This document shows positions 25,499 through 50,132 of a stretch of DNA of 64,000 nt, piece after piece. The translations under genes were made by a program, and so were the position numbers. Under the pieces are notes generated by a model that worked only from the letters and a program-made list of their open reading frames with translations, was not told the DNA's origin and ran no database searches. The stretch is taken from NCBI RefSeq assembly GCF_964194025.1, contig NC_134470.1, positions 37,014,001-37,078,000 on the forward strand, in the 5' to 3' direction. Position 1 is the stretch's first letter, and each line of letters starts with the position of its first letter. This stretch comes from Convolutriloba macropyga (lineage: Eukaryota).

Positions 25499-25504
25499 CC
25501 ACTG
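25499..25504 (+). repeat. Left target-site duplication CCACTG
   Basis: Identical hexamer at 53249-53254 immediately outside the other TIR. Confidence 0.95.
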
Positions 25505-25615
25505 AGAAGAATACATATGCCGATAGGGTGATATTAGGCACCCAATCAGCACATGCATTCTTCCTCGGTTTTCGGAACCTACCCGACAATGAAATTGTTC
25601 TAATTTTAGAAACAC
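25505..25615 (+). repeat. Left terminal inverted repeat
   Basis: Reverse complement of 53139-53248; 79 of the outer 83 nt identical, looser over the inner ~28 nt. Confidence 0.96.
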
Positions 25616-25616
25616 C

Positions 25617-26676
25617 TCATTTTAGAAAAAAACAAATTAAAACAAGGAGCTGCAACCTCCTCATAATTCCGCCTATATGGTTTACGTGCTTTATGAGGCT
25701 GTTGTTATTTAGAGTTTCAGCCCGTTCGAGGCGACGCAGCAATTGTGAAGGGGCTTCGTCGTCACCAATTTGTTCAGCCTGCTCAACTTCAAGGCCGGCA
25801 AGATCATCTGCCTGCCTTATGATGCTGCGGAACTGATCAACCATTTGCTGTAAAAACAAAAAAACAAAGTATATAAAGAATCCTTTACTAGAACTGTCCG
25901 CATCAGCTTTTCCCAAGACATCAACAACATTAGACAGGATCAAAATGCATTGAAAACTATTTAAGCTCACCCTGTCTCTCTCCTCTGTTTATTCTCCTCG
26001 TGTTGGGTGAAGCATTTCTGTTGGTTGCAGGTAGAGAAAGGAACCGTATTTCAGCGGCCTCACTTTCTTCATATGAGGGAGGTGGATCATCGGACACCCC
26101 GGTATTTTCGAGTGCCTGATTCGACACCTCAGCAGTATTTGGTGACTCAGGCGACGAGAGAAATACTGATTCCTCCAAAACTCTGGCGGCTTCATTCAGC
26201 AAGCCGTCACTGTTGTCATCATACCTTCCAACATGACGGCCCAGGAAAACCTAGGCTTGAGTTAAAGCCTGTCTTTCTCCGTCTCTTGGACATCCATACA
26301 TTCGGAGGAGATGGCAAAACTGCAACAGATTAGAACTGAAAGGCCTCGTATTCGCCCTCTCTTCTTCTTCCAAGGCCATCCGACTATCATCATCATCGTC
26401 CGAGGAAGAGGAGTCTAGAATATACTGCGCACCTCGGCGTCGAGGTCTCAATCTGAGCCTCCTGTTCATGGAAAATGGCTCCTCATCGTCATCTTCCACT
26501 TCTTCCAGAGAATTTTGCGCACTTCCGTTTTCATACACTAGTGCTAACTCATCTCCAATTTCCATTTCCAACTGAGGCGACGGAGGGATAGACACATCAC
26601 TTGCGTTATTGTCCGAGTTAGGATAGTCGACTAACATGGCAGAAGCAGAAATAAAATTTGAGTTGGTGCTCGACAT
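25617..26676 (-). pseudogene. Maverick accessory gene: acidic/disordered protein with PPPSY motif and helical C-terminus, probably spliced
   Basis: Three consecutive minus-strand ORFs; ATG at 26676 preceded by tttag; a 41-nt GT-AG intron at 25848-25888 restores SWEKLMRTVL|QMVDQFRSII. Confidence 0.55.
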
Positions 26677-26883
26677 TCTAAATAACTTTTTGGAAATTTT
26701 TAGGTCTGCATGTTTGTTTATTTTACTGCTTCATTTGTTTTTTTTTCTATTTTTTCTTAGTCTGTCGGATCAACTCCATCCTCTTATCGCAAAAGAAAAA
26801 TTAAATCTAATTTTGATAGCTTGCACAAGTTTTGCAAGAAAAAAATCAACTTTTCAAAGAATTTATTTTCATTGTAGAAATAC

Positions 26884-27322
26884 TTAATTTTCAGCAGCAA
26901 ATTGTAGCAACTCTTCTTCAGTTAGATAAAAAGAAAAAGTTCGGGTCGGTAAATAGATACAGTGAGCAAAGTATAAACAGTACAATGCACACAGTTTACT
27001 TGTCGCTAGCTGTTTGAACAAGGGACGAATTTCGACATATTTAATGGATGTATTTTTTGTAGAGTTTCTGCAGTCTTTTAAAAATACTCGGGAAAACTTC
27101 GTGAAGATCTCGTTTGAAGCAGTCGTAGAAAAGTAGTTGTCCATTACTGTCTGCGATCAAAAGCCAGTGTTCCCAAAAAAAGCAAGATGGTTGATTGTTA
27201 ACAATAACAAATTTGTTTCGCTGAATGAAAGGGAAGTTCTCCGCAGAATAACAGACAAGGTAACGCAGGCTAAGCTCAGAGTGTTTACTGACAAAACGAT
27301 CAATGTCACTGTTGTCAACCAT
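26884..27322 (-). pseudogene. Adenain-like cysteine (capsid maturation) protease
   Basis: IVNN...EHWLL (His), FYDCF (Asp), and after a frameshift QLATSKLCALYCLYF (Gln, Cys); start overlaps the capsid stop. Confidence 0.9.
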
Positions 27323-28678
27323 TGTATATTGCTGAGTTTTTGATAACTTCTCTATTGCAATTAACCAAAGCAACAGATTGACGTTCAGCCATAAGTATGA
27401 CTCTAATGGGTTGCTTGGTTGGTGTTTTGAATTTGAATTCGATCCCCAACCGGGCACCAGTAAGTTCTGGGCGGATTGTGCTGTCCCGTAAGTTGGAATC
27501 GGCTGTAAGATTGAAAATCAACGCAAAATGATTGGCAAAGTTATCTAGAGTAATTCCGTTGCCGCCAACAGAATGACCCAAGGCCGTCATTGTTGTGTGG
27601 TAGAGACGGACGTGGCTTTTAGAGATATCAATGGGTGTGCCACCTACTTGCGATCCTTCTCGTGTGACCCTCACTGAACTCAAATTAAAGTCCTCGAAAT
27701 TGAAAGGATTAGATTTGTACGTTCCGGTGAAAGACTTCTCTGGTACCAAGACCACAACCAATTTGCAAGCTGGAGCTCTATTGAACAAATCATCCTGGTA
27801 ATAAACGCTGGTACCTGTAGTGATTCGAAAAGAAGTAATTGGAGACTCTTGCCACTCAAATTGAGCTGCTTTTTTCTTTAAAGCTCTCTCAAGTGAAATA
27901 ACGGTCTCCGTTCGAAGTTCCAACAAGTGTACAAATAGAAGCATTTAGGACCTTGATTGTGAAACTACTCGCATCTTGACAACCTCCGGGCTGATGCATA
28001 ATGAACTTGTCCAAAGAACGTGTCAGTCTGATCCGAACTTCAACTCCAGGTACCAAATACTTGTCAACACCGTTCAAAAAGTTGTTAGAAATTGTGGAAA
28101 AAGTGTGAAAGCTACGCCCTGAGTTATTTCATACCGTCTGGAAAAAGCATCGTTTTTCAAAGTGTTGAAATCCGAAAGAGCTGGTTCAAAACTATACCAT
28201 TGAGTTGCCATTATGCTCTGCTTGGTTGTCAGGTCGTAACTGAGGTCTGCCTCTAAGATGGACTTAAGGGGGTGCAAATTGCTGGACGAGGAAACCATGG
28301 TGCCATTCAAGAAAACTTCCACATTTTGCCACAAACTATTGGCGATGTTCTTCACGAAAATTGGTAGGAGCTCGCCGTCTGTACCATCACTTTTTTTCTT
28401 CCTAACAGCTGCTTCGCCTGATGATTCTTTAATCAACAATAATTCCATAATTCCATTTTGAGTAAAATGTTGTTTAGATCGGCTACAGTTCCACATATTT
28501 CCGTACGTGGCGCCTGAAATTCAAACTCCAACACTGGGCCATCTGAGTTTCTTGGCGGGAAAATTCGTTTGTCGTAAGCGCAGACAAAATCAGCCAAAAC
28601 TTGACTTGTACCAAAGAGGTCCAACATTGAGCTGGTTGCTGAAACTGGGGGATCGGCATAGGTGAAGGAATGAGACAT
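27315..28678 (-). pseudogene. Major capsid protein (double jelly-roll), frameshifted
   Basis: GPVLEFEF, NSLWQNVEVFLNG, KYLVPGVEVRIRLTRS, FTGTYKSNPFNFEDFNL, NGITLDNF...LIFNLTAD: motifs typical of animal Polinton major capsid proteins. Confidence 0.9.
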
Positions 28679-28691
28679 TGCAATCAATCAG

Positions 28692-29250
28692 TTAGGTAGC
28701 AGCGTCGACGATGGAGGAAAAGAAATCTTGCTTGTTATAGTTCTTCTTTTTTTTCGTTATACGCCTACGGTTTGTTCTCAAGACACGCTTTTTCCTTGTG
28801 GAACGGTTTCTGATCGTTTTTCGTGCGGAGCCTTTTGATTTTCTTCTCTGGTAGCGGAAGCGCTTTTTCTTTGATTTTGTCCTTCTTTTTGTATTGGTAA
28901 TCCGTTTAGGTGTCGATGACAGACGTCGCCCTTTTTCTGTTGAACTTTTTCTTCTCGAGCGACCACTTCCAATTTGTTTTTTTACCGTTTCGCGTAAAGT
29001 TTTTTTCAGGGCAGCTTTTGGTTTTGTACGTCCCTCTATTATCCCTAGCACTTCAGGAGCGGCATATTGTACCAAGTTTTTTGATAAGGGTAGACCGTAT
29101 CGCTTTGCAAGTGGTATCACAAAACTTTTCAAACCGAGACGCAGCGCAGAACCCAGCCCACTGCCGTATTGACGATTTGTTGAACCAGAATAAAAACTAG
29201 AATTTGCTCGGGGAAAAAAGTATGCGATTAGAATGGTAGTTGACGTCCAT
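28692..29250 (-). pseudogene. Basic core-like virion protein with Q-x-G-x-G motifs
   Basis: FYSGSTNRQYGSGLGS upstream of the annotated ORF, an amphipathic segment, QIGSG, then a long K/R-rich tail; located between integrase and capsid genes. Confidence 0.7.
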
Positions 29251-31293
29251 TCAAGAACTGTTTACAAAGAAAAGTTTCTGCCTTTCCCCCGCTGACGGTG
29301 AAGCAAGGCGTTGACAACTGAATCGCTTGACAATCAATATGAGTACTGAACCGCAGGTTGCCTATCAACCCGGTCACAAACGATTTCTTAAGCTGACCAA
29401 TTAACTAGGCCCTCAGCTGCAATGCCTACTTGCTGGCGGCCACGATGTCTATCTTCGTCAAACTTAAAAGCAACTAGTTCAGAAGCATAGAGACGTCCCA
29501 AAATTTCTTTGCCTGTGTTATCATGCAGTACATAGGTTATGGGTTCACTACGATTACGCGGAATGGACACTCTTGCAACAGTAAAGACTTCATCTGTAAA
29601 TCGCTGCTTATAACCTTTCTGGAAGGGTTTTCGCTGAAAAGACAAGCGAACAGTTTGTTTTTTCCTAAAGACTTTTTTCGCCAAAACAGTTTGGGTGGCG
29701 TACGATAACTCTTCATAACTGAATTTGGTCTTTTATCGTAAGCATTGGGACTGTTTTGCAGAACAAGACTCCTAACATGTTCCTTAGAGACGTCTGCGGG
29801 AGCTAAAAGATGCTTGAGTTGACTCGAGCGTTTATCAGCCTCACAAATTGTTGAAGATGACCCAAATAAGTACATGAACCACTTTCTTATAAAAATTTGT
29901 ATAAAAATTTTTCAACGTACGCACAAACCGCTCTGCAATAGCACTTTTCGAATCACCATAAGTGCTATAAACTTCAACTCCTAGCTCCTCACAGTGTTTT
30001 CTAAAGTATCCTTTGAATTCTTTCCCTTGATCTTTCCAAAGTTTTATGGGCACTGATGTTGGTTTGATTTTCTTCTCTGGTAGCGGAAGCGCTTTTTCTT
30101 TGATTTTGTCCTTCTTTTTGTATTGGTAATCCGTTTAGGTGTCGATGACAGACGTCGCCCTTTTTCTGTTGAACTTTTTCTTCTCGAGCGACCACTTCCA
30201 ATTTGTTTTTTACCGTTTCGCGTAAAGTTTTTTTCAGGGCAGCTTTTGGTTTTGTACGTCCCTCTATTATCCCTAGCACTTCAGGAGCGGCATATTGTAC
30301 CAAGTTTTTGGATAAGGGTAGACCGTATCGCTTTGCAAGTGGTATCACAAAACTTTTCAAACCGAGACGCAGCGCAGAACCCAGCCCACTGCCGTATTGA
30401 CGATTTGTTGAACCAGAATAAAAACTAGAATTTGCTCGGGGAAAAAAGTATGCGATTAGAATGGTAGTTGACGTCCATTCAAGAACTGTTTACAAAGAAA
30501 AGTTTCTGCCTTTCCCCCGCTGACGGTGAAGCAAGGCGTTGACAACTGAATCGCTTGACAATCAATATGAGTACTGAACCGCAGGTTGCCTATCAACCCG
30601 GTCACAAACGATTTCTTAAGCTGACCAATTAACTAGGCCCTCAGCTGCAATGCCTACTTGCTGGCGGCCACGATGTCTATCTTCGTCAAACTTAAAAGCA
30701 ACTAGTTCAGAAGCATAGAGACGTCCCAAAATTTCTTTGCCTGTGTTATCATGCAGTACATAGGTTATGGGTTCACTACGATTACGCGGAATGGACACTC
30801 TTGCAACAGTAAAGACTTCACCTGTAAATCGCTGCTTATAACCTTTCTGGAAGGGTTTTCGCTGAAAAGACAAGCGAACAGTTTGTTTTTTCCTAAAGAC
30901 TTTTTTCGCCAAAACAGTTTGGGTGGCGTACGATAACTCTTCATAACTGAATTTGGTCTTTTATCGTAAGCATTGGGACTGTTTTGCAGAACAAGACTCC
31001 TAACATGTTCCTTAGAGACGTCTGCGGGAGCTAAAAGATGCTTGAGTTGACTCGAGCGTTTATCAGCCTCACAAATTGTTGAAGATGACCCAAATAAGTA
31101 CATGAACCACTTTCTTAAAAAAATTTGTATAAAAATTTTTCAACGTACGCACAAACCGCTCTGCAATAGCACTTTTCGAATCACCATAAGTGCTATAAAC
31201 TTCAACTCCTAGCTCCTCACAGTGTTTTCTAAAGTATCCTTTGAATTCTTTCCCTTGATCTTTCCAAAGTTTTATGGGCACTGATGTTGGTTT
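28837..31293. repeat. Internal tandem duplication 1 (~1229 bp: 28837-30065 and 30066-31293)
   Basis: Near-identical copies; junction ggttt|gattttc with TTT microhomology. Confidence 0.95.
29388..30065 (-). pseudogene. Duplicated 3' part of the integrase
   Basis: Copy of 30616-31293 (WKDQGKEF, AERFVRTLK, FQKGYKQRFT). Confidence 0.9.
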
Positions 31294-31720
31294 TTCGATA
31301 TTAATCATCTTTGAAAAAGCTTCAAAAGCTGCCTGAACAGATTTTGATTTCATTGTGCGAACTCGTAGAAAACGTGTTAACACATCAACTGCAATAGAGA
31401 GATACTATACGCCGTCATTTTCCTTTGAAAATTTATTCATAAAAGCGACATCAACGGACCAAATATGAATCACTCCGAGACTTCTGATTTAAGTCTTTTG
31501 AACTTTTGTCTTGCAGCTTTAAACTTTGTATACACTTTACTACTCTCCAAAAACTCGCACTTTCGACAAGGGTAACCCGCTGGCTTTTCTCAAACTGGAA
31601 ATTCCACCATAAGCCGCAGGGTTGTTCAGCGATGTGTAGATTCCTTTCAAGTAACGATACTCAGCTTCTGAGAGTCTCCGCTATTTTACCGGCCTTTTCT
31701 GTCGTTTTAACAGCAACCAT
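30616..31720 (-). pseudogene. Retroviral-like (RVE, DDE) integrase
   Basis: PAAYGG, IWSVDVAFM, AVDVLTRF, WKDQGKEF, KSAIAERFVRTLK, FQKGYKQRFT.EVF, YVLHD.TGKEI.GR.YASEL. Confidence 0.93.
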
Positions 31721-31777
31721 GCTTTCAAGCTTTCAATTCAGTATATAGAAAATATGAGTAGAACAAATCAACAACTA

Positions 31778-32552
31778 TCACTCAAGACTTAGCTTGGATG
31801 AGCTAATTTTATCGTCAATGACTTGCATCGCGCAACTGTTTAGGAGCATGGACTTTAGATGATCAACTTTTTCCTTTGTTATCGGCACCATCAATAATGT
31901 TTCAACAATTTGACGTTCCATCCAATTCAACTTTTTATTATGAATCTGCAAATTCTTAAGAAACTGTATCAGGTTAACAGAATTTGTCATCTCAACTTGA
32001 TCGCCCGACTGAAATGAATTAGATCCGAGGAGTAAGCGATTACTAGATTGGCTGAAAGAAAGACTGGGATTGGAGTCATCAGAGACAAAAGAGCTCGCAT
32101 GCAATAACGTTTCAGCATAGCACCATGTTTTTTCTGACTGTTGATTTTTGGGAGCGTGGACCTCCTTTCTTTTTTCTATACAACTGTTTCAAAGAAGAAC
32201 TGACAATCGATTCTTCCCTAACAGGGTCGAAAGAAGAGTTTCCTTCAAAATTAGTTGACAGGTTGTTTTGTCTGTTGTTGTTAGCAGCTGACTCGCTGTC
32301 GTGCTGGTTCTCTACAGGAGTAATTGAGTAGTTCAACAGTTCTCCGTGATCTTCTTTATTGACATCCGTTGTATTGAAGCTATCTGCTTTTGGGACAGAG
32401 GAATATGACCTTTTGGACTGTGGCTGCATTGCTAGCAAATTTGTATGAATAGCTTTTTTTGGCTCTTCTAGTTCTTTCAGCAACGGAACTAGTGCAAACT
32501 CAATAAACTTTGACGCTGTATTTGACGAGGCCTGCTTTGCTCGATATGACAT
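31778..32552 (-). CDS. Hypothetical Maverick protein(s), possibly one frameshifted gene
   Basis: Adjacent ORFs 32112-32564 and 31778-32104 between ATPase and integrase; no recognised motif. Confidence 0.45.
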
Positions 32553-32608
32553 AACAATAAGCACAAAAAAAATGTTAAATTAGGGGAAAAAATTTTATCG
32601 GATTTAGT

Positions 32609-33680
32609 TCAGCTGCAGTGCATGCAATGTTTAACATTTTGCTGATCAATTTTGCCACCACTCGTTAGTGTGATTGCACAATTTTCGTAAAGTTCACGGA
32701 TCGAACCATGTAATTCGTCATGTAGAAAAGAGCTGTTTTGATGGAGGGTAAAATTGTTCGAAGAGACTTGTGTAAAATCGAAAGAAATGGGTGCATTCCC
32801 CGCGACGAGGCACCGGCTGATTTGACTAGAGTCTAACGACAACTGGCACTGATCACCTGTTTCATTTTCAAAGGAACCACTGACTGCTCTCCTTTGCTTT
32901 GATTGCGTGTCAGATGATACTAAAATATCTTTTTTGCTACATACGGTAGTATTGCAGATGTAGATGCAAAATCTCAGACTATCGGGACATGTGGGTGTCA
33001 AGTCAATTAGGAAATGACCGAGTGGAAGTCTCATGCGATGCTTATAGCAGCTGTTGAAACACAGGCGTTGCAGTATCCAGCTCAAGAGCCTAAGATTTTC
33101 AATTACTTACCAACGCGTGGTGATTTTGTGAGAACGATATGCGTTGCGCTCTTATCAATGGTAACCGAATAAGGACCCTGTTGATAGAGATTGTGTTTAA
33201 TGAAAATTGAGGAGATGTTTTTATGCCTACCGGCTGTCGCCAATGTAGCGAAAACCTTGCTCTCCACAATTTCCTCACCGCAGTCATCAAAAATTAGCAG
33301 CTTTTTCTTTTGTGGGTAGCCTATGTTGCTGTGCTTCTCGGAAATAGCATGAAGCTCACTCAAAATAAGGTCGTCAACACAATATTCGTCGTTGCTAGCA
33401 CCGCTGCTGTTGTTAGTTGTTAAGGGTATTCATGATTGAATTTTTTGACTGAATGCAGCACTTGAATTCTACTGACACTTTTTCCCAAAATCTTCAAAAA
33501 ATCGTAATAAACAGGTCGCCAGTAGCGATAAATGTAAACAATGTGTTCAAAGGTGGTTCGAAAACTCCCTGTAGGACAGTAGGAGCTGATAGCATTGAAA
33601 GGATCAGCTGAGTTTTTCCAGTTCCGGAGCTTCCGCAAACACATAAAAACACGCTCTTTCGTTGATATTAACTTATTCAA
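32609..33680 (-). pseudogene. A32/FtsK-like DNA packaging ATPase
   Basis: Walker A GSSGTGKT (alternate frame near 33615-33635), Walker B LLIFDD, AGRHKNIS, KHNLYQQG, KSPR, GHFLIDLTP. Confidence 0.92.
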
Positions 33681-34470
33681 TACTGCTCATACATGTGGTT
33701 GTCTTGTGCTGCGGAGTGAACGGGGGGTAACAAAAAAGTCAGACAATATGTAATGACCATAAAATATGCAGTTTTTAGCTCACAACTGAGAGTGTCAGAG
33801 GCAGACGACAGCTGGCTACAAGCAATTGAAACCATCACAATTACAAAAAAAATTGAGTATAGAAGGTAGCACGGGTTCTTTCTATTGCACAGCACACAAA
33901 CTCCCAAACATTATGCTGCTGTGAGGTTTTTGATGCTTTAGCATCTTGAATCCTGTCGGCTCCGTCTATTTGGTCAACAGCATCAGCAATGTCAGAATCG
34001 CCAGCTTTACTACCTCTCTGCAACTTTCTAACAACGTGAACTTCAGGGGTTGGCCTCGGAGCAGTCACGAGATAGCCGATACAAGTGCTCAACAAAGTTA
34101 GATACGTCGTATTCTCTTCGCAGAGGAAGGGCGAGGAATGGTGCGTTTCATCACTTGTAGACCCCGCGGTTGCTTTCTTTCGACCCGAGAACCCACTCTT
34201 AGATAACTTGTAGAGATACAAAAAGTTAACAAACACAATCACAATGCATTGTGAAAATCTGTTGATTGGGCCAAAAATAACGAGTGCCAAGTCTTGGTTT
34301 GAATTTTCTTGAACCTTGCAATCTTCAGTTACATTATCTCCGCCCATGTTGTAAAACGTTCTTCCATCGCTCGAATCTGTTGTTTGTTCTTGTACATTAG
34401 ACGGCCGCTGCTGATGATTAGTGTCTTTCATAATTAAAATGAGAGAGCGTGTGCTGAATGGGGTATTCAT
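33677..34470 (-). pseudogene. Putative membrane protein with two similar two-helix hydrophobic modules
   Basis: FSQCIVIVFVNFLYLYKL...YLTLLSTCIGYLVTAP and YSIFFVIVMVSIACSQL...YFMVITYCLTFLLPP in overlapping frames. Confidence 0.5.
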
Positions 34471-34499
34471 TTTGTCTCTTACCCCTATTGGAGAAAAAG

Positions 34500-35760
34500 A
34501 AAAAAACTTCCATTGACATTGATTGACAGATAGATAGATAGATAGACAGATAGATATTGATTAGTATCAAAATGAAAAAAAATAGTAGCCTCAAAAATCC
34601 AAAATTTTGACAGTCAAAAAACCAAAATTTTGACAGAATTTTTGTCTAATTGCATTATCTAATTGATTGCAGTATCATCAATCAGCAGCGTAGTATAATA
34701 ATTCTATTGAGTTTTTTAATTGAGTTGAGTTCAGTTGAGTTGAGTTGAGTTGAGTTGAGTGAGTGAGTTAGTTCGAGTCAAGTGTGTGTGTGTTGAGTTC
34801 AACAAAATGTCAGAGGCAGGCCTCCAAAAGACGAACGCTTTGATGTTGCTGTGCCTGAGGTCTTTTTTGCAGCGGATGATTTGTTGTTGTTTGATCAAAA
34901 AGTTGAAGACTATTTGGACGCAGTGCAGTGGACTGACTGGAGGGATGCACTCTCGTTGTTTTTGACAGTAGAGCTGACGAGTTCAGTTTTGGATATAGTC
35001 ACCCTCCTGCTCCTCTTCCCATTTAAATCTAAGTGGCTGCTTTCCATTGATGTTGTTGTTGCGTTATTTCCTAACAATTCCATATAATTTCCGCACGGCG
35101 TCGCACCGCCCGAAGATTACGCGCCATCCGAAGCCCGAGCAGCGCGTCCGCCGCCGTAGCCCCGCTCGGCGTCGTCCGCGGGCGGCCCTTCGTTCGATCG
35201 GGCAGCGCGTCCGCCATCGGCGCCGTCCGCAGACCGCGCGCCCACGTCGTCCGCGGGCGGTCCGTCGTTCCTCAACTCAGAATTAAAACAACTGCTTTTT
35301 TCTTCCCCTACCTGTTGTTGTTGTTTTTTTTTCTAATCATCTCGTTGTTATCGTTGTTGTGAATAATGTGTTTTTTTCGCTGCAGTTGCAAATGACGGGG
35401 AGCCACCACTTTAGAAATTAGGTGACCAGTCGGGCAAAATACTTGTTTGACACACACACACACACACACACACACGCAGCCAGTCAGTCAATTGAAACCA
35501 GGCAGGAAATTTGTTTGTAACGATTTTTTTGTCTTCAAAGCATCTGAAAAACAAAAGACTTTTTTCTATTGAGAAATACAGGGCCTTTATCGTGAAAATA
35601 AACCAAAAAATTAGTTTATGAAAAAATGATGTATATCACGTCCATCCATCCAACTCATTGTTGACGATCTCCTCATTGCTGTTTTCTTTGCTTTTCTTTT
35701 GCCATAAATACAAAGTTCTATCGAACAAATTAATGTTATCAATCAATCCATCAATCAATC
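34500..35760. promoter_or_regulatory. Internal non-coding region with a CpG island (35090-35280) and GATA, GAGTT and CA microsatellites
   Basis: Abrupt GC/CpG-rich patch with repeats cgtcgtccgcgggcgg x2 and gcagcgcgtccgcc x2, upstream of the structural gene block; regulatory role is inferred. Confidence 0.4.
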
Positions 35761-36129
35761 AACCAACCAACTAAGCAACCATTACAAAAAGGAACTTGAT
35801 AATGAAAAACTGCATAGCTAGGCGTATGATCTAGGTCATTGACAAATATTCTTCTATTAATTATTCTATCAACAACAACAGTATATTTTGAACAATTTCC
35901 CTTGCACAACGAAAAATTAGGAAAATTAGATAGAAACAGCAAAAGAAGCGCCATTTTTAGTAACAAAAGGAGACACAGTACAAAAACAAAAAGAATCCAT
36001 TTTTGTTCTGGCAGCAAAGAAGCGAGCAGCTATAGAAAATAAGTATCAAATGAAAAAAAAATGTAAATAAAAAAATGTAAATTAGTAGCAAGAAATACAA
36101 AAAATAGTGTTTTCCGAAACACCAGCTTA

Positions 36130-38078
36130 ATAGATAGCATCAGCTTCTAATTAACGTCAGTAGTATTGATATTGTCTTCATCATCTTCAGTGTCATCATA
36201 GTAACCATCAGGAACAACAGCTATTACAACAGCTTCTGCCGAGGAGGAAGTAACATTTGTCTTCCATCCCAGTAACTTGTTGTTGGGTATCATTGCTTGA
36301 TCCATCTCCCACGTGTTGGAACACATAGGCTACTCCCGCTGAGGAATTGTTGTTTTCTTCACTCTCTTCTCCAATTGTGTAATTGGAAAGATTTGAAAGA
36401 TCACCAGAGGAATAATGTCGAACGTTTAGAGTGTTATTGGCAGCTCTACCAAATTGACTTTGTTGAAAACGGTTTCACTGCTGCAACTAAGTAGCAGATG
36501 GTGCAGCAGTATATGTCACTGGTGATGGTTGCTGATTTTGCACTCGAAGCGAATGAGTCCGTTCGAGCGGCAGCCGCAAACGGTATCTGCTGTGTGGAAA
36601 GACATGGCCTAGCTGCAACGTGCGACTGATTATCTTCAATGTGCGTTGTTGTTTTGGTTGAAACAATGCTGATTGAAATCCAAAATTGCGTCCGATGCAC
36701 TATCATACTGTGGACAAAAGAACTGAGATGAATTCATTTGGCTGCTGTTTTGCTGTTGTTGTTGTTAAGCGAACCGATTATAAGCATTCTGGAGCTGGTT
36801 TTGAGGCAAAAATGTTGTTGCCGCTTGTCGATAATTGTAGACTTAATTGTAGTAGAAAAGCAGGCTGCCAATGGCTGGCTTCAAACCCCAAATACGATTC
36901 ATTTCTGCTACGGAGAAAGTAGCAATGCTCTTGAAGATTCCTACACGAGAAGCGTCTAACTGTATTGTCAGAAAGAGGTGCCTGCTGCTCACTGGAATTT
37001 GTGTTTCGCAACTCAAATTGCTGATACGCTTAAACACCTCAATATTGGGTTCAAAATGCTGCTGCAAAAGCGGGCTCTGATGTAAAGATACATTGAGGAC
37101 CGAATCTTTTGACCAATCGCGATCAAAGTATTGACTACAAATTGGTAGGAGAGCCATTGAATCTCTCTCTGAAAAGACCAAACCTTGTGTTATGAGCAAG
37201 GCTACCAACCAGTATAAAGTTGCGTGGAGCGCGTGAAAGTCGAGTCAAGAATAAATACTACTTGCCTGCCTTCAATCTTACATTTATGTATTAAACTGTA
37301 TTAAGAAAAGCCAAAGATGTCATAATCTAAATTGCTGTCCAAAAGCACAACACTATTTTACCAAAAATTTTACCTGCAGTTCAAACAGGCACTTGGAACA
37401 GAGAATTGGTGCTCTCTTTGGAAAATATTTGTTCAAGTCAGCATTTGCGTCATATGTAGAACCGAAGAAGTCGAATTGTTCCCCACGCGCAAGAGCACAA
37501 GGTTGTTTATTTTTTTATTGTCCAGCGAACGCAGCATAAACAGAGACGGGACACCACACTTGTATTTGAAAGAACTTGAAGCCTGATCTCATCTCTGACC
37601 TCGGTCGTTGAAAACTGAAATAGTGCTTTACGCGTACTACGGCTTCTTCAAGTTTCCAGTTTGTTGTCACCACTGGTTGGCCATTACTTGTAGATGATTG
37701 GGAGTCATCTCTACAGTATATCATCAAATGAAGATGGTTCTCGCAAAGCTCCGGTGCTTCCTTATTAGTGGACGACATAAGATTGCACCTTTGAGCTGAA
37801 TTTGGAACACGATGTTGATTCTGTGAAATTTTTCGTGTCACACACTCTGCATTTGGAAAACCGCATTGTTTTAGGCAGTTAAAGACATGGGCACCAATCA
37901 CAAACTCAATGTGCTCACGCTGTAGCATTACACAGAACTCCTCCAAAATGTGGTCACATTGCTCTATCGCTCATTTCTCACAATCATTGGTGGGGTGGAA
38001 CACAATATGCGCATAATTCCTGGTGGCACCTTGACGAAACTCCATACCGAAACTCTGAAAAATCAGTGCCCCCTGCAT
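36130..38078 (-). pseudogene. Large accessory gene with an N-terminal HUH-endonuclease-like domain
   Basis: In-frame read-through of the stops at 37971 and 37515 gives YAHIVFHP...FVIGAH...NHLHLMIY...VWCPVSVY; further fragments to ~36130; 3' limit uncertain. Confidence 0.45.
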
Positions 38079-38431
38079 CACAGTTAGTAATAGGTACACA
38101 ATTGAAACTACAAATGAAAACGAACAGAAAAACATATAAGTGCGGTAGTAAGTAATTAAACAATTAGATTTACCTACAACAAGCAAAAATCTAAGTTACA
38201 AAAAATAGCCTCAAAATGGCAGTTCTCTTCATTCAATTCAATCTTTTGTACAGTAAAAAGCAACAAGTACTGTCATCCATAAAGACTAATTCATCAAAAA
38301 TGTTTGCTGGAATACAATACAAAACTCCGAGATATGGTATACAAACATAGAGAGACAGACAGCCATGAGTCTCTGCTTTAAATGATCATCAAGTTCTCCT
38401 CTTCTTTTGCAGGATATGATCAATCAATCAA

Positions 38432-39435
38432 TCAAACAAGTGTTTCAAGGTCTCCATAACTATACAATTGCTTACGAGAAAAAGTTGAATTTGTTGTTGT
38501 AGAAGTGTTATCATCAACACCTGATTTAGATCGCAACCCCTTTTTTCGGGTGCACACTTCCTCGACCAGGCTTCCAAAGTGAGAAGTAGAAGGGTTATTA
38601 TCTCTAAAATGACTTACATTTGCCGGCGTGTCTTTTGAAATTGTGAAAGAATTGTTTCTGTGAACGGAAATTGGTGTATAATAAATGTTTCGAGAGCTTG
38701 TTGGTAAAGAGTGTTTTCTTTCATACAAAACCGGATACTGCATATACTTGTTTGGTCTAATCAGTGGTAAAACTGCAGTCATGTTTTCCCTACTTGCATT
38801 GGAAACCAGGAGATCGGGAGGAACGGAGTGAACTTGCGCAGTAGTCTGGAGAGCTTGGATAGAATTTGAATCGTGTTGCCACCAAGAAGCCGCGGACATT
38901 TCGCCTTGCGTTGTAGCAGAGCAACCACTGCAATTCAACACAGATGAATTTTTGTCTTCTTGCAAGTGTGTTTGCCCGTCCACCGCAACCCCTTTCCCAA
39001 GAACATCGGTCGCCAGTCGGTTTTTCGATTTCCTTTCAACGGCTGACTGAATTTCCTGTTTTCGGGACCATCGGAAATGAGTAGCATCAATGATACAGCA
39101 CACAACGACAGACACCAAAATTATCGAAAGGATGAACAGGAACAATGAAACATTGTTCGCGCGCACAATAGAGCTGACAATAGTGTCATTAATTAGATCT
39201 AAGTCAGCTCTTAGTTGGCCCTTTGGCCCGCAACAAAAAACCCATCAACGCTCATGCAACAGCCCATATTCTTCATTTCACAGGAGTCGACCGCAATGTA
39301 GTGACAAGTCAATTTTTCCAGATAGCTGTTACTTGACCAGTCTGTTACCGTCTCTGAGCTCCAATGTTGAGTGCTGTCTGACTTAGTTTGAGACATAACG
39401 TTCAATAATCTGAAAACAAGACAAAGATTGTGCAT
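38432..39435 (-). pseudogene. Single-pass membrane protein (small Cys-rich ectodomain, TM helix, long S/T-rich tail)
   Basis: ORFs 39211-39444 and 38432-39166 share a frame across a stop; TM LFLFILSIILVSVVVCCII; sequons NDT and NVS before the TM. Confidence 0.55.
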
Positions 39436-39569
39436 GATCTGCAATTTCTGTTAAAAAATAAACAATTGGAGAAAAAAAAGTGTGGAAATTAATACTTCAC
39501 ATTGAAAAAAGAAACAAAAATTAAATTACTGTTACCAGATGCAAACTGGCTACATTAATGTTTGAAGTT

Positions 39570-42500
39570 GGATAAGAAACCATAAGGGACAGATAGCCAG
39601 TATCAGTATCGAAGCAGCGTTTAGTACAAGTTTAGTCATTTTGTTGCAAAACCGTGTTTGAATTTTACCAGTTTTAACGCAACGACGCATTGAGCTAAAT
39701 GGGGAGCGCAGCTCGTGCGCCTCCTGAAGAACCAGTTTTTTGAACGCTTCGATATCGAACGTGTTCTCCGCTGCTCTGTTAATAGTGAGACCTTTGAATT
39801 TAAAAACATTGTATTCAGCAGCTGTTTCATTATGGCGTCTATTTATACAGTAACATTTTGGCCCACCACTAAAAAAAAAATTATCAACCGTGACCGTTTT
39901 GTAAGCTCGTCCGTCATATCACCGAGACAGGAACCGATAGGTATATCCCTATGAGCATCCAAACCAATAACTTGCTCATCAATGTGCATTATACTGTCTG
40001 TATCACAGTATAAAACGTTGTGAGGATTTTTCACTTTCGAAATATGCTGATATAGTATGCTTCGGGCGTGGGAGGTTGTAAAGGCAGCCAAAACAACATT
40101 AGATTTTCTAGGAATACCAGCCGCATCGTTTGGTACTGAAGAAGCATCAAATCTTCTCCCACTAGAGTTGCGTCAATAACGCGAGAAAAATTAGATGTGA
40201 AGTATTTTACGACATCAGGGTAATTGTTGACATACCTCGTCTTTGGCAGGTTCTCACGCATACCAAGATAACCCCAAAAAGAATTGAGAATTTTTGAGAT
40301 GAAACATAAGCCTTCGTTCCGCTCCATATTCTCCTCATTCAGTTTAACCCCCTCTTTGAGTTCAAAGTCGCGCAGAAAGTCTTCTGTGGCTAAAAGTTTC
40401 AGTCTGATCATAGTTAGACTCTATTGGCCACCCACTCGCTTCTGTTTTTATCTTCCAAAAAATGTACTCCCGAAATAAGTTTGATGAGCGTCTTGCAGTG
40501 CTCCATGACCAAATTTCCGACACATCAATAACTCTGTAGCCCCAACGAATCCCTAATCGTAGTTCAACTGTCACAAATGTGCCCCAGAAAGCCCTATCAA
40601 GGTAATCACTGTGCGAGCATTTTGACCCATTGATTGAGATATTTGCCTGCTGGGATTTGTTAGAACTAGTGGTTTCGACGCAATTCCTGCAGAGCGGGAA
40701 AACAGTTTCGCATTATACTTGAAAGGGATAATTGGCAGCCAGAGATTCCTCGGCGGCAGAACAAGACATTTGATTAATCCAAAATATTCTTCATCCAAAA
40801 TTTTTTGTTCAACTTCCGAAGAGGGCTGACAATAAATGCAATCATTCGAACGTGATGCTAGCACTTTTCGTCGCTTAAGACTTAACGGATTTTCCCACAA
40901 ATTTTCATCAAAAACTGGAGCCACAAGCACAAAGTCAGGATGACCAACAGGATAAGGGCAAGACGCGTTAACATATGGGTGCCAGGAACAAATATCAGCA
41001 TACCGAAACTTTTGGTTACACTTCTTTTTGTGCCAACGTGTGCAGAAATTTTCTGTCCCACCGCCAACAAAAGCGTCTCTGGCTTTGAGTGGTGAAAAAA
41101 CTCGCTACTGCTTACCAGTTGTTTCAACTTTGACGTATAAAAGTAGCCGTTAGAAAAAGGAGCAATTTTTGCTGCTTCTTCAAAAGAATGATTGTTAACT
41201 AAATCATTAAATTGCCATTCCCAGATATTTTCAAATGACTCAATAACATAGTTTCAACCATCCGTCATTTTGGCGAAATTTGTTTTCAATTGGAGATTGG
41301 AGAAACTGAAATCTTTCTTGAAAAGTGAAACGAAGCTCTTCCATAGTCATTCCCAATTTCTTATTAAACTCTTTGCGATTTGGATAACATTTGTAGCAGC
41401 CGTGATAATAACAACCAAAAAACTCATAAATAACTGCTCTGTACACAACTTTAGAATCGCTGATCCAATCTTGTTCATCGGAGCGCTATTTTTTCAACAT
41501 GAGACCATCTACACGGAACAGGCCAATTTTTTGCTCTTGAAATTCTCTATCGTTTTTTGAAGCAGAACCACCCAAGGAGTTTGATTTGTAGAACTTGAAT
41601 TCAAAATTCTTGTTTTTTCTCTCCCGGTACGTTCGATCCAGCAGAGCCATTGATTAGCCGGGAACAAAGTTTTCTCCATCGACCGATATCCGTTTCCTTT
41701 TAAAATCACTATAGAGGCTGGAGGCATGAACAATTGTCGGTATATATAGTTACAGGCTGATGCAGCAGTACATGCTAATTGAAAGGGGTCAGTGTTGTTG
41801 CATGTTTTCTTAATCAGTCGTCGAAAAGTGGTAACGCCTTGTTTCAATAATTCAACGTCTGACTGGCAGTATTTTGTTAACTCGAGCTGAAAGTCGTAAA
41901 CTAGCAAGTTTTCCTTGTAAATTACCTATTGCTGTTGATGCCACTGAATGAAGTGATTAAATTCCTCAGTATCTTTTAGGGAATTAACGCCAAACAGACA
42001 ACGCGGCGGGAACTGTGCGGGTAGGAAGGCAAAATCTGGTTCTTGGCATTCTCTTGAATTCTCATGGCACTCTATTGGTAGCGTCCGTGCTGTGCAATTT
42101 GATCCTTGGAGTTTTGAAAGTCTGTCATCTTTCCTACTAATGCAGTGAGGGCAATCAGCGGAAACTATGTTCACTAAGCCGCATTCCTGTCCATTAGGGC
42201 GCGAAGAAATTGTATGAAAAGGTGTTTTACCTTCAAAAGCTGCAGATGAAGTAAGAAAATGGGGGAAATAACCCTTCTCCGTCTCTTCAATATTAAATGT
42301 CTTGGAAAATTTCCGAAGATGGATAGGTATGAACAGGCATGAATCAATTAACCGTTTATTTCGCACTTTGAGTGACAACTTTATTGCCTCTCAGAACAAT
42401 TTTTGGAATGAAACTTTGTTTCTGATATAGCCACTCCAAGATTGGCAGAAAGTCGTACCCACTTCCAAATTGAGCAAGATACCATTCGCACTTTCTGACA

Positions 42501-44220
42501 CGCTCTTTGTTGTCGAACAACCAAAGACAAAAATCGTTAACTGAATTGTAACCAACAAAAGATTCCTCAACTCCTGAAAATGATTTTGCAATCCGAAGAA
42601 CCGTTTTGTGTGCCATCTTTCGTTCGCAGCTCTGATCAGTTTCAATGTCAAAGACCCAAGTTTGTTCGTCTGGCACTGCTTGCTCGGCTTCTTCTTCCTA
42701 TCGCGAGAAGGAAGCGTCAGAACTGGACACTGAATTGAAGAGGTTACTCCTCTTTGATTTTTTGCAGGCAAAATTTCCCTTATCATCATCAACAGTCGTT
42801 CTTTCACCAACAACAGTCTCCAGGGCTGCACGTGCCCATTTTTTGGGGCTCTGTACAAAACACTTGTGTTTCTTTCCTTGTGAGAAATCGTAAAATTGAT
42901 AAGTTGCGCACCGTTTTTTGCTGCATTGATGAGTGGACGCCGAGTGCCGGGAAACAGTAAGATTGCACCCAGGACATTTGTAGAAGTAAGAGCAAATACG
43001 TTGTGTTATATGCGCAACCAAGCTCAGCTGACTCTTCAAAAGTAGTCCACAAGTTTGGCAACGATACGTAGAACACGTCTGTAGTCCAAAAAAATCAGTA
43101 TTGAAAGCAGTAGAAGCCCTGTTTCTGCAGTTTGGCATACGGCACTCTGTGCACGAACTGTGTGCACACAAGTGTTTAACAGTAGGGAATCCTTTATGAC
43201 AAGCATATCAGTAAAACAGAACGCTGAACAGGCCCTTCATTGAAGTGATTACATCAACGTGCTCTGCGTCTGAGTTGTACAACAAATCAATGTGCTTCTC
43301 CTGGCCGTCGTTGAAACTTTTCAAATAAACACCCATGAACTTTGCATCGTACACAGTTATGTTGTAGGGTATTAGACTTACAGTTTTTGCCGACATAGAC
43401 AGATCGTCAAGAGTCCATTTTTTATTCGAGCTGTTTTCGAAATCAATATCTGAATTTGAAAACCGTTTCAGTTTGAATATCAACTGTTTTTTTTTCAAAT
43501 CGTGCTTGTATTTTTTGAAAATTGTTTCCTTGCCTGTTGTAATCCATTATCTGCCAGAGCCATGCCTACGCCTAGTGCTGCTAATAAGCAATTATTTGAT
43601 TCATCTGTATGAATAGATATAACTGATCCCTTCTGTGATATGAAAGTTAGTACGTCGGGGATAGTTCGATTATCAATTCCGCCTATTTTATAGCCACCCA
43701 TTGCAGGTAAAGACACCGATAACACATTCACTTCCATATCGCTACTTATGTCGACCCCTTGTTTGAATTTAAAACACGATCTATTTCATTCAGCACAAGA
43801 ACTGGGTAACTCAGACTTGGACCATTTAGAACCAAGCGTATACGGTGATTAGTGTTTTCGTTTTCACGGTTTAATTCTTCAATGAGGAAATTTATCAATT
43901 GATTAAAAATGTCTTTGACTTTGTCAATTTGTGTTTCAATACCTCGGAAACTGACCTCGAAGTCGCGACTGACCGCTTGTAAGGAGCTCTTTCTTTTCGG
44001 TCTTCGTGTTACTTGATAAAAGGTTGAGTGATCAAAACCACTAACCAAGCTCACCTCTGGTGCATTTGCTACAGTAGCGTTGCTGCTGTTGCCATTAGTG
44101 TGTGTGTTTTCACTTGACAAGATCAGTGTCTGAAAAGAGGTATCAAATTTAGAACCTGATTCTTCAATTAATAGTTTAAGACGACGGTCTGTTTGTGTGG
44201 TTTATAGAGAGAACAATCAT
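39570..44220 (-). pseudogene. Protein-primed family B DNA polymerase (pPolB) with N-terminal OTU-like protease, Cys-rich region and Vsr-like insertion
   Basis: VFDIET, FGSGYDF, IDSCLFIP, EKGYFPH, KYCQSDV, YEFFGCYYHGC, KILNSFWGYLG, AAFTTSHAR, LYCDTDS, LGDMTDE, C-terminal PYGF; many frameshifts. Confidence 0.95.
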
Positions 44221-44472
44221 CAATTTCGAACAGCAATAAAAAAATGTTAAACAGAATTCGTGTTCTACTTTAAGTTGACACAAGAACAAAGTATTGTGTC
44301 ATCATAACATAATTATAAAACTCGAGTACAAAGAGTGAACGCATCAGAAATTACAAATGAAAAAGTTTGTTTGGAAAATGATTTGCGGCATTAAATACAG
44401 CAGCATGGGTGGTAAAAGGATAGAGCAAGTTTTACTTTAAATTTGAAAGCAACAGTTAAAGGCACAATTTAC

Positions 44473-44841
44473 TCATTTGTTGACCGGTTTCTTAACATAT
44501 TTACAGGCAAAAACCGCTACCTTATAAAGAAGACATTCTTTGGCTTCAGATTTGAGGAACCACCAAGACGTAGAAGAACTTCTCCAAGTTTTTGACAGGT
44601 TCGTTCCATCAGATACGTCATGCTGAACCACTGAAAACCAGTCAAAAACTCTTTGATATTTCGGAAGCGAATGAAGTCGTAAACCCTCGTCTCTGAGGCC
44701 TTTTAAAAGCTGCACCGCCCTCACATCGTTCACCTCTTTTAATCGAATACGTTCACTTGCTTCCATTAGTGAATCGTTCCACGCCGCAATACATTTGTCA
44801 AGATAGACAACCCTTTCATCTGCACTGGCGTGTACATTCAT
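44473..44841 (-). CDS. Hypothetical Maverick protein (~122 aa)
   Basis: Intact ORF from ATG 44841, preceded by gtttcag. Confidence 0.55.
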   Translation of the reverse strand: MNVHASADERVVYLDKCIAAWNDSLMEASERIRLKEVNDVRAVQLLKGLRDEGLRLHSLPKYQRVFDWFSVVQHDVSDGTNLSKTWRSSSTSWWFLKSEAKECLLYKVAVFACKYVKKPVNK

Positions 44842-45118
44842 TTCACTGAAACGCAGCAAATACGTTAGAAACCGCAACAACAAAATCAGTTTGATTAACA
44901 ATTGATTGGAAAGATATCATTCGATTCTTTTGAAAAGTCTGCCCAATAGTTGACACGTTTTTTCTCTCAAAAAGCTGCAGGTTTAACCCGGATATAAATT
45001 TAAGTACTTTACTATCAGTAAAAACACTGAACTATACATAAAATCTGAAGGTGAAAGATAGGCAGCTTACAAAAATTATAAACGTTCGAAAAAACGTTAT
45101 AATCTAGTTTATAAACAA

Positions 45119-45535
45119 TCACTCTGGGATCGTCGCTGGTTTCTGTGCCTCATTACGCTGTCTATATTCTTGCGATAAATTGAACGCTCTTAAGCTGAGT
45201 GCTTTTGCGTCGTCATGCATGTCAATTTTTCTGTAACAATCCGCCAGCCTCAAATAAATTCGTTCGAGTGTCTTGTTCAGTCGATTCCATTGAAATAAGG
45301 AAGCGAAACGTCTGATGATTCCCATATGGTAGAGCAAATTTCCAAAAGCCTTTGTGCTTTCCAGGTTTCTCAGAGCTTCTATCCATGTACAGGATCTGTT
45401 ATCTATCGAAATGGTAATTGACTGATGTGACAGCTCCAGTTGACGAAAAGCTATCTCAACTTTTTCGTTAACTTCAACTTCTTTTGAGCATGACGGGTTA
45501 GCAGACATTGCACATGGTTGATTTCCACTCTGCAT
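45119..45535 (-). CDS. Helical protein with a TPR-like motif
   Basis: Intact 138-aa ORF; IYLRLADCYRKIDMHDDAKALSLRAFNL fits a TPR pattern; preceded by tttttcag. Confidence 0.55.
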   Translation of the reverse strand: MQSGNQPCAMSANPSCSKEVEVNEKVEIAFRQLELSHQSITISIDNRSCTWIEALRNLESTKAFGNLLYHMGIIRRFASLFQWNRLNKTLERIYLRLADCYRKIDMHDDAKALSLRAFNLSQEYRQRNEAQKPATIPE

Positions 45536-45916
45536 TTTGTGGTCTGAAAAACAGAGAACTGGCTGAATTGGTGATCTTGTGAGAACATTTGTTTTTTTTT
45601 AATTGAATTTGACACTCATTCATCATAATACTATTAAAGACAAGGTGGTTTTGAATAAACTTGCTTCTTGCAGTTGGTCGTTGAAATTAAAAATAAGGGA
45701 AAAAATTTGGTAGTAAAACAACTAAACATGACTGACTGTCTTAGCATAAGATGAAAAGTAATACACATAAGAAAGAAAAAGCGTACAATAAATTTTTAGA
45801 CATATCAAAATCCGCGCAAGAAAAATGAATTATGGTATGTTGAACATTTTGCTATGCTATGGTTTGGCAGCGAAGAATCAAGTCTACAAGAGTCACATTC
45901 GAGCATGTCAGCATTT

Positions 45917-46689: not shown

Positions 46690-46949
46690 TGATACTTGTC
46701 TGAAAAACACAGTACTATAAGCTTGTTCAAGGTTTGAAAAAAGGACCAACAATAGCTGGAATGAGGTGACGAGTAAAAGCTGCAAAAAATGTTTTTTATT
46801 TAAAAAACAGTAGCAAACGAATACAAACGTATCGTATATAGGTTGATCAAGGAGAGGAGAATAATAATCAGGTAAGCAATCAATCAGTTGGATCAAAGCT
46901 GTGTGATATCATTCAGACGGTTTCATTTTTTCATATTGGAAGAATTGCT

Positions 46950-47585: not shown

Positions 47586-47609
47586 TCTAAATTATTGCAA
47601 GCAATGAAA

Positions 47610-48329: not shown

Positions 48330-48437
48330 TGAAGAACTTTTTTGGGCACTCAATGGTATGTTGAACATTTTGCTATGCTATGGTTTGGCAGCGAAGAATC
48401 AAGTCTTCAAGAGTCACATTCGAGCATGTCAGCATTT

Positions 48438-50108: not shown

Positions 50109-50132
50109 TCTAAATTATTGCAAGCAATGAAA

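What the first reader, a model, noticed from the sequence alone, without database searches (positions are those of the whole stretch)
25506..25563. Each TIR begins with a ~58-nt imperfect terminal hairpin
25506-25530 pairs with 25539-25563 (21 of 25 Watson-Crick pairs; three of the four mismatches are G-T wobbles on the other strand). The stem, including its mismatches, is identical in both TIRs, and the two TIR differences in this segment lie in the 8-nt loop. A small GGTT-TTCGG-AACC hairpin follows. Protein-primed elements do not need fold-back ends, so this could be paired protein-binding sites or a hairpin origin reminiscent of parvovirus-type termini.
Basis: partly seen in the sequence, partly recalled or inferred. 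Interest (0 to 1): 0.7.

Follow-up and report, generated by a model that had tools for sequence, protein, structure and literature searches.

The report
Fold-back ends of protein-primed Polintons
Both ends of this decayed virus-like transposon (a Polinton) begin with DNA predicted to fold back into a hairpin, and most other Polinton families sampled in this animal genome do the same with unrelated sequences, so the hairpin is likely a working end signal in their protein-primed copying rather than a parvovirus-style primer.

Summary
Observation confirmed. 25506-25563 is a 21/25-pair stem (z -5.5 and -8.4) at the very start of both TIRs of a 27.7-kb decayed Polinton (AG...CT ends, 6-bp TSD). The stem and its mismatches are shared across the family. 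The two loop differences are private to this copy, and the small second hairpin is not conserved. Terminal or subterminal fold-backs of unrelated sequence occur in all four polymerase lineages sampled in this genome: strong in 8 of 13 TIR types, weak in 5. One lineage shows 7 doubly changed stem pairs. No flipped end was found among 109, and the family's polymerase keeps a terminal-protein-like and a vOTU domain, so parvovirus-type rolling-hairpin priming is unlikely. Best reading (0.5): a single-strand end structure serving protein-primed replication or end repair, as at Streptomyces telomeres, overlaid on a sequence block shared with the sister family. Untested leads: a VSR-fold nuclease inside the polymerase and an unassigned HUH-motif gene. 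Precedent: a 2026 preprint on protist virophages and PLVs (mostly non-pPolB). This scan noted similar hairpins before on other DNA.

The parts
25505..53248 (.). Decayed Polinton/Maverick, 27,744 bp, termini 5'-AG...CT-3' (family called W here)
   Evidence: TIR pair and TSD; rve, Pox_A32 and DNA_pol_B_2 fragments
25499..25504 (+). Left target-site duplication CCACTG
   Evidence: Same hexamer at 53249-53254; exact 6-bp TSD in 17 of 22 paired family elements, one mismatch in 4, unmatched in 1
25505..25610 (+). Left TIR (core 84 nt 95% complementary to the right TIR; about 106 nt with gaps, 91%)
25505..25510 (+). Terminal 3-nt repeat AGAAGA, comparable to the (AGT)2 and (AG)3 end motifs of vertebrate Mavericks; a slide-back role is inferred from recalled knowledge of protein-primed replicons
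   Evidence: sequence; PMC8097293 section 7
25506..25530 (.). Outer (terminal) arm of the left fold-back
25531..25538 (.). 8-nt loop; two changes here are private to this end
25539..25563 (.). Inner arm of the left fold-back; the more stable fold is on the - strand, whose 3' end is the terminus
25519..25550 (+). Sequence block shared with sister family S (GCCGATAGG-N5-ACTCG.CA.CCAATCAG); includes CCAATCAG at 25542-25549, which resembles a CCAAT box (label recalled, not tested)
   Evidence: 24 of 32 identical at offset +1
25567..25579 (+). Small GGTT-TTCGG-AACC hairpin, not conserved in the family
53190..53247 (.). Right fold-back, same stem and mismatches
53145..53248 (-). Right TIR
53249..53254 (+). 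Right target-site duplication CCACTG
26825..27322 (-). Remnant of a putative maturation-protease gene (assigned by gene position and a His...Cys pattern, recalled; no Pfam hit)
27318..28678 (-). Remnant of the putative major capsid gene (453 aa in a sister copy; assignment by size and position, no family hit), in 2 pieces
29391..31677 (-). rve integrase remnant, in pieces and partly duplicated
32633..33565 (-). A32-like packaging ATPase remnant
37356..38135 (-). Remnant (interrupted by stops) of an unassigned 260-aa gene with an N-H-x-H-hydrophobic (HUH-like) motif, shared with sister family S
39558..44120 (-). pPolB remnant in 8 pieces; in sister copies 1546-1596 aa with TP-like, vOTU and VSR-fold domains
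41240..41485 (-). Piece of the VSR-like nuclease domain (EFFGCYYHGC) within the polymerase remnant

Best explanation
The stem is a conserved fold-back at both termini of a protein-primed Polinton that likely acts on single-stranded DNA as an end signal, predicted to form at the 3' end of a displaced strand. Shown: the element and its family have AG...CT ends and 6-bp TSDs; family polymerases carry TP-like and vOTU domains; the fold-back starts at nt 2 and is more stable on the 3'-end strand; it keeps one fixed orientation; unrelated families have their own fold-backs, and one lineage keeps its outer stem paired through 7 double changes. Inferred: strand-displacement synthesis leaves a 22-27 kb single strand with TIRs of only about 76-108 nt in this clade; its 3' end would fold locally, protecting the end and presenting a structured origin to the TP-polymerase without needing a long-range panhandle, and possibly templating repair of lost terminal bases. 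Inferred origin: the inner arm arose by copy-back of the terminal sequence and was then kept. Inferred overlay: the inner half also holds sequence-specific sites (the block shared with family S), which would explain the mismatches at nt 17 and 21.
For: Fold and strand bias. Family conservation. TIR pairs were found at 41 of 47 polymerase loci of other families. Of 13 TIR types, 7 have z <= -4 in a fixed 130-nt terminal window and an eighth (C) at its 175-nt span, against 1 of 13 for the next 130 nt and 0 of 13 for host flanks. They span four polymerase lineages, 24-34% identical or without BLAST similarity. In lineage A/B, 97.4% of cells pair and 7 of 27 outer pairs change on both sides; 0 of 500 shuffles reach the paired percentage or covariation score. 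The stem reaches nt 1-2 in W, A, B, C, D. The 3'-end strand folds better in W, A, B, C, D, E. TP-like fold (Z 6.7 to the Pol IV little finger; Ser in 72 of 81 rows after helix 2) and OTU fold (Z 9.1; Cys and His in 80 of 81) match the architecture in PMC11071308. Streptomyces telomeres show terminal-protein priming together with 3' fold-backs and templated end repair (PMC5449611, passages).
Against: No molecule was observed folded; all structure is predicted. Five of 13 TIR types (F64, F68, F71, G46, G47) fold only weakly (best z -2.2 to -3.6), and S, most F types and G favour the other strand or neither. In S the stem starts at nt 7-8, so it cannot template the last bases. The covariation comes from about four related subfamilies; the count of doubly changed pairs was reached by 45 of 500 shuffles, the shuffle ignores relatedness, and copying between arms gives the same pattern without selection. 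Within W, stem changes accumulate like loop changes, 48 pair-breaking against 1 double and 2 pair-forming, as expected after insertion, so they give no sign of selection. One metagenome contig end starting AGTAGT has no fold (L263, z +0.9) and another only z -3.3.
Confidence: 0.5

Rival explanations
1. The fold-back is a by-product of copy-back: the nascent strand sometimes turns round and copies itself to its protein-blocked 5' end, leaving an inverted copy of the terminus that is tolerated but has no structural job.
For: The inner arm ends at the complement of nt 1 in A, B and D and within one inserted base in W. The A/B outer stem changes almost only in pairs, with one single-sided change in 12 rows, as templated copying would give. 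Some families lack a strong fold.
Against: W keeps outer-stem mismatches at nt 9 and 13 (nt 9 changed in 2 of 56 ends, nt 13 in none), so its arms are not being recopied, yet the stem stands. Folds recur in four lineages with different shapes (simple, branched, G/C-run). S has rebuilt a stem in a different register.
Confidence: 0.22
2. The arms are inverted binding sites on double-stranded DNA (host or element proteins next to the core origin, as recalled for adenovirus ITRs), and the hairpin is only their geometry.
For: GCCGATAGG and CCAATCAG are kept between W and S at the same distance from the end although their pairing differs. The two are near-inverted copies of one motif, and two of the four mismatches fall inside them.
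Against: It does not account for the outer 13 pairs in W, for S's separate 14-15 bp perfect stem, or for 27-bp stems with paired substitutions in A/B. No binding protein was identified; the CCAAT-box label is recalled.
Confidence: 0.15
3. An element-encoded nuclease cuts the folded end for excision or end resolution: the VSR-fold domain at the G.T pairs, the EndoVII domain of other lineages at branched ends, or the HUH-motif protein at the hairpin.
For: W and S polymerases carry a VSR-like domain (pLDDT 88.6; Z 6.1, rmsd 3.2, 104 aligned to Vsr 1cw0; E, D, G, C, H invariant in 77 rows). Other lineages carry Endonuclease_7 (over cut-off in 4 of 6 proteins, E 3e-4 and 1.5e-3 in the other two). 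W has three G.T pairs on one strand. W and S share a gene with N-H-x-H in 14 of 21 aligned homologues.
Against: RAP domains match the model as well or better (Z 7.5, 6.6), so G.T specificity is not shown. S has the same domain but 0-1 G.T pairs. Nick-and-refill would erase the mismatches, which persist. PMC11071308 reads such domains as homing-endonuclease insertions. The HUH-motif protein has no Pfam, PHROG, NCBIfam, PDB or Atlas support, no invariant tyrosine, and no homologue in the fetched stretches of other families.
Confidence: 0.09
4. Parvovirus-type self-priming: the folded 3' end primes synthesis and terminal resolution regenerates the ends.
For: The 3' end can pair with its last or penultimate base; the A/B fold is 124 nt, like the 125-nt AAV palindrome (PMC11575299); the model is proposed for protist virophages and PLVs.
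Against: 0 of 109 ends are flipped; TP-like and vOTU domains are kept; no Rep helicase or recognised Rep nuclease among scanned ORFs. Asymmetric resolution that keeps one orientation (recalled for some parvovirus left ends) is not excluded.
Confidence: 0.04

Closest known systems
Terminal palindromes of endogenous virophages (subtypes 1, 2, 5, 6) and PLV subtype 4 of Halocafeteria seosinensis (bioRxiv 10.64898/2026.07.28.741278; passages and section 7 read; supplements closed)
   Same: Palindromes inside TIRs next to the TSD, about 52 nt, in rve-integrating elements of the same virus group; hairpin priming proposed there.
   Different: There they go preferentially with non-pPolB replication genes. 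Here they sit in animal Polintons with TP-vOTU-pPolB, recur in four polymerase lineages, show paired substitutions and fixed orientation.
Polinton/Maverick TIRs (PMC8097293 section 7, passages and part 1 of 43 of its supplement; PMC8502044 passages; PMC10748475 passages)
   Same: AG...CT ends, short terminal repeat motif, 6-bp TSD, TIR length within the reported 46-1447 bp, core genes, VSR domain in pPolB2.
   Different: The words hairpin and palindrome do not occur in the main text of these three papers; the end motif here is AGAAGA.
Streptomyces telomeres with Tpg/Tap (PMC5449611, passages read)
   Same: Terminal-protein priming together with palindromes that fold on the 3' single strand, and templated repair of lost terminal bases.
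   Different: Bacterial end patching after internal initiation, several packed palindromes, unrelated proteins. A working analogy only.
AAV/parvovirus ITR hairpins (PMC11575299, passages read)
   Same: Terminal fold-back able to pair the 3' end.
   Different: Flip and flop orientations define AAV ends; none was found here. The element is integrated dsDNA with its own protein-primed polymerase.

Membership tests
Polinton/Maverick | TIRs with 5'-AG...CT-3' termini | tested here: met
Polinton/Maverick | 6-bp target-site duplication | tested here: met
   CCACTG here; exact in 17 of 22 paired family elements
Polinton/Maverick | Protein-primed B polymerase with TP and vOTU domains | tested here: met
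   PF03175; OTU Z 9.1 and little-finger-like TP fold Z 6.7 in a sister copy; broken in the window copy
Polinton/Maverick | rve integrase and A32-like ATPase | tested here: met
   PF00665 and PF04665 over cut-off in sister copies, fragments in the window
Polinton/Maverick | Double jelly-roll capsid and maturation protease | tested here: inconclusive
   453-aa and 171-aa ORFs at the expected place, no Pfam hit, not folded
VSR-type (pPolB2, group 2) Polintons | VSR-like nuclease domain inside pPolB | tested here: met
   motif, model and Z 6.1 to Vsr; tree groups W and S with oyster, fish and insect homologues
Parvovirus-type rolling-hairpin origin | Terminal palindrome able to pair the 3' end | tested here: met
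   predicted fold
Parvovirus-type rolling-hairpin origin | Flip and flop orientations | tested here: not met
   0 of 56 W ends and 0 of 53 ends of A, B, D, S
Parvovirus-type rolling-hairpin origin | Rep/NS1 HUH nickase with catalytic tyrosine | tested here: inconclusive
   an HUH-like motif gene exists but has no library support and no invariant tyrosine; fold not predicted
Parvovirus-type rolling-hairpin origin | Hairpin-closed or concatemeric replication intermediates | not testable with these tools
   only assembled contigs were available; no joints listed
Streptomyces-type telomere | Tpg/Tap proteins and end patching | not tested
   no search for Tpg/Tap was run; used as a functional analogy only
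Structured RNA (pre-miRNA or other Rfam family) | Match at the gathering score | tested here: not met
   8 weak matches, all far below gathering

The most novel reading that the evidence does not exclude
Animal Polintons generally end in hairpin telomeres that are read on single-stranded DNA by element-encoded structure-specific proteins (the nuclease inserted in pPolB, or a stand-alone HUH-fold protein), and this is how the integrated element is excised or its ends are restored. That would supply the missing excision step of Polintons and join protein priming to hairpin-end biology.
Probability: 0.15. Interest if true: 0.85.

Novelty: new variant of a known kind. Interest (0 to 1): 0.6.

Why it matters
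How Polintons leave the chromosome and restart replication has not been shown experimentally, to my knowledge. A recurrent, orientation-fixed fold-back at the termini gives a short, defined cis-element that can be assayed in vitro with purified domains. It also weakens the suggested link between terminal palindromes and non-pPolB replication, because here they coexist with terminal-protein machinery in four polymerase lineages. Practically, fold-backs help to find Polinton ends in assemblies.

Tried and rejected
Sola-type reading (GAG ends, 4-bp TSD): rejected, family copies give AG ends and 6-bp TSDs. Genome-wide pattern scan for AGAAGAA...TTCTTC: 724 matches against 664 for the control, uninformative. 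Viral contigs: capsid and group-1 polymerase queries found no relative; 11 group-2 loci held no TIR pair. Metagenome contigs: 80 loci kept of 390; those of 4 kb or more were scanned and none gave a TIR pair with TSD; of 11 contig ends starting with AG, one has a 51-nt terminal fold (L220, possibly a simple palindromic repeat), one is borderline (L216), nine have none, and none is a proven terminus. Sequencing runs: no RNA holder listed; contigs of 7 runs showed no fold-back joints, which contigs could hide. No TIR pair at 6 of 47 polymerase loci of other families. A possible third W/S-clade family on C1298 gave no terminus. Foldseek found no significant PDB match for the VSR-like domain; sequence searches of PDB were blank. 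Sigma-70 promoter/terminator scan: not relevant to a eukaryote. Kapitonov and Jurka 2006 was not held and Pritham et al. 2007 was not looked up, so earlier remarks on TIR palindromes there cannot be excluded. Paper searches.

Full report
1. The observation. The stem is as described: 25506-25530 pairs with 25539-25563, 21 of 25 Watson-Crick, with mismatches at element nt 9, 13, 17 and 21. As ssDNA it folds at -12.8 kcal/mol (z -5.5) on the + strand and -18.0 (z -8.4) on the - strand, where three mismatches become G.T pairs; 0 of 200 shuffles fold as well. Only 3 such stems exist in the window, two of them these TIRs, and none in 5 shuffled windows. At the left end the - strand is the one whose 3' end is the terminus; the same holds at the right end by symmetry.

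2. The element. It runs from 25505 to 53248 with AG...CT ends and TSD CCACTG. Two searches of the own genome returned 76 and 77 candidates, 40 scored each; the 60 loci kept hold 61 distinct ends forming 22 paired elements, with an exact 6-bp TSD in 17, one mismatch in 4 and no match in 1. The window copy is decayed: polymerase, integrase and ATPase lie in pieces. Less decayed sister copies carry a 1546-1596 aa pPolB, rve and A32 ATPase. The polymerase N-terminus models well (pLDDT 87.6) as a little-finger-like domain (Z 6.7) followed by an OTU domain (Z 9.1), with Ser in 72 of 81 and Cys and His in 80 of 81 aligned rows, and matches adintovirus and mavirus polymerases in BFVD. This is the TP-vOTU layout described in PMC11071308 (sections 7 and 9 and passages read). 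So the family is equipped for protein priming.

3. Within the family. I compared 56 of the 61 ends with one natural copy (dropped: one with an insertion, one with N, three duplicates). 28 are identical over nt 1-60. The mismatch positions changed 3 times in all. Paired-stem and loop sites change at similar rates (0.021 and 0.027 per site and end), 48 changes break a pair, 1 is double and 2 form a pair: ordinary decay after insertion. No end is closer to the flipped orientation.

4. Other Polinton families of the same genome. I fetched stretches around 47 further polymerase loci, chosen for long frames and varied similarity, so not a random sample, and found TIR pairs at 41. A tree and BLAST table sort them into four lineages: W+S (VSR type), A/B/C+E, D, and F+G, 24-34% identical between group-1 lineages and without BLAST similarity to W/S in the compared segment. 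Termini: A and B begin with a 124-nt fold-back whose outer 27 bp include nt 1; C has a 175-nt branched version; D a 61-nt fold including nt 1; E a 118-nt fold; S a 14-15 bp perfect stem from nt 7-8; F92 a branched fold around a G-run/C-run stem; F64, F68 and F71 the G/C stem plus a short terminal stem; G a repeat array with a weak stem. In a fixed 130-nt window 7 of 13 types reach z <= -4, C reaches -8/-10 only at 175 nt, and five stay between -2.2 and -3.6; the next 130 nt reach -4 in 1 of 13 and host flanks in 0 of 13. The 3'-end strand is more stable in W, A, B, C, D, E but not clearly in S, F or G. In 12 aligned A/B ends 97.4% of cells pair and 7 of 27 outer pairs change on both sides; 0 of 500 shuffles reach the paired percentage or the covariation score, 45 of 500 reach the number of pairs, and the rows are related. 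No flipped end was found among 53 more ends.

5. The sister family S (polymerase about 50% identical). W and S share AGAAGAA and a 32-nt block, 24 of 32 identical at offset +1, against 7 of 38 downstream. In W the two halves of this block pair with each other, which places the mismatches at nt 17 and 21; in S the first half pairs with a different, farther partner. Sequence and structure are therefore both kept, but independently. That is the evidence for binding sites overlaid on a fold.

6. Nuclease leads. W and S polymerases hold a VSR-like domain: some homologues are named G:T-mismatch endonuclease by their source, the motif is in 91 of 120 homologues, five residues are invariant in 77 rows, and the model (pLDDT 88.6) aligns to Vsr at Z 6.1 and to RAP domains at Z 6.6-7.5. 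PMC10748475 reports this domain (passages). Other lineages hold Endonuclease_7. A G.T-cutting role on the W hairpin is attractive but S lacks the G.T pairs and W's mismatches persist. Late in the work, prompted by note e1-9909988, I found a 260-aa gene shared by W and S (33% identical) with 32 relatives in the representative library and N-H-x-H-hydrophobic in 14 of 21 aligned rows. The likeness to HUH nickases is a recalled motif reading; no library supports it, no tyrosine is invariant, its fold was not predicted, and fetched stretches of other families hold no homologue.

7. Mechanism. Most likely (0.5) the fold forms on the 3' end of a displaced single strand and serves as a local structured origin, end cap or repair template within protein-primed replication. 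Streptomyces telomeres show that terminal proteins and 3' fold-backs work together and that a fold-back can template lost terminal bases (PMC5449611, passages). Steps shown: termini, TSD, TP-like and vOTU domains, fold potential, recurrence, fixed orientation. Steps inferred: single-strand intermediate, folding in vivo, recognition, repair. Rivals: copy-back by-product (0.22), duplex binding sites only (0.15), nuclease substrate (0.09), rolling-hairpin priming (0.04).

8. Comparison and novelty. Terminal palindromes are reported for Halocafeteria virophages and PLVs, mostly with non-pPolB replicases (bioRxiv supplements closed and may bear on this). My ten searches showed no paper on fold-back ends of animal pPolB Polintons, and three surveys lack the words hairpin and palindrome in their main text; most listed papers were seen as listings only, and the two founding papers were not read. 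This scan noted similar hairpins earlier, in this genome and others; those notes are unchecked and are not counted as support. Outside this genome I could not test generality: public contigs gave no verified termini. Verdict: real, conserved, a new variant of a known kind; interest 0.6.

Noticed in passing
window 37356-38135 (-); L159:8637-9419; L142:6618-7409: Unassigned 260-aa gene family of VSR-type Polintons with HFxFYP, a Cys-rich insert, N-H-x-H-L-L and WCP[FY]S motifs; 32 relatives, no library name; possible HUH-fold protein.
   Followed up: partly
window 28834-31293 and 45832-50852: Two internal tandem duplications of the element, 1.23 kb (99.7% identical) and 2.5 kb (99.1%), each duplicating gene pieces.
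   Followed up: no
G000:C4:15976302-16002396 (L012, L037): Full-length W element whose flanking hexamers do not match (5 of 6 differ), possibly a recombinant of two insertions or an assembly chimera.
   Followed up: no
G000:C4:79950022-79951521 (L017): 1.5-kb internally deleted W element with both TIRs and a near-exact TSD.
   Followed up: no
G000:C7:53415520-53432470 (L169, L171), G000:C1:81304800-81320570 (L174, L176), G000:C2 L166/L168, G000:C6 L138/L140: Elements whose two ends belong to different TIR subfamilies yet each end is self-paired, or whose one end keeps only part of the fold; suggests recombination between subfamilies and arm-to-arm rather than end-to-end homogenisation.
   Followed up: partly
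L192:6617-6690, L312:3926-4060, L316:4689-4760: Lineage F TIRs contain a G-run-TCCGGA-C-run palindrome with variable run lengths about 25-30 nt from the end.
   Followed up: no
window 51465-52590: AT-rich subterminal repeat array (TTTTACAATTTGTAAAAA units) near the right end, itself able to form a 21/25 stem at 52494.
   Followed up: no
window 8000-12000: Four kilobases of extreme purine skew (GC skew up to 0.87, AT skew up to 0.77) in host DNA.
   Followed up: no
L203:6170-6195 (-): A W end truncated at about nt 4 is preceded by GCATTCTT, the same eight letters as nt 51-58 of the TIR; chance or a template-switch scar.
   Followed up: no
L220:10966-11016: A metagenome contig with a group-2 pPolB ends in a 51-nt fold-back starting with AG; may be a Polinton terminus or a palindromic repeat.
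   Followed up: partly
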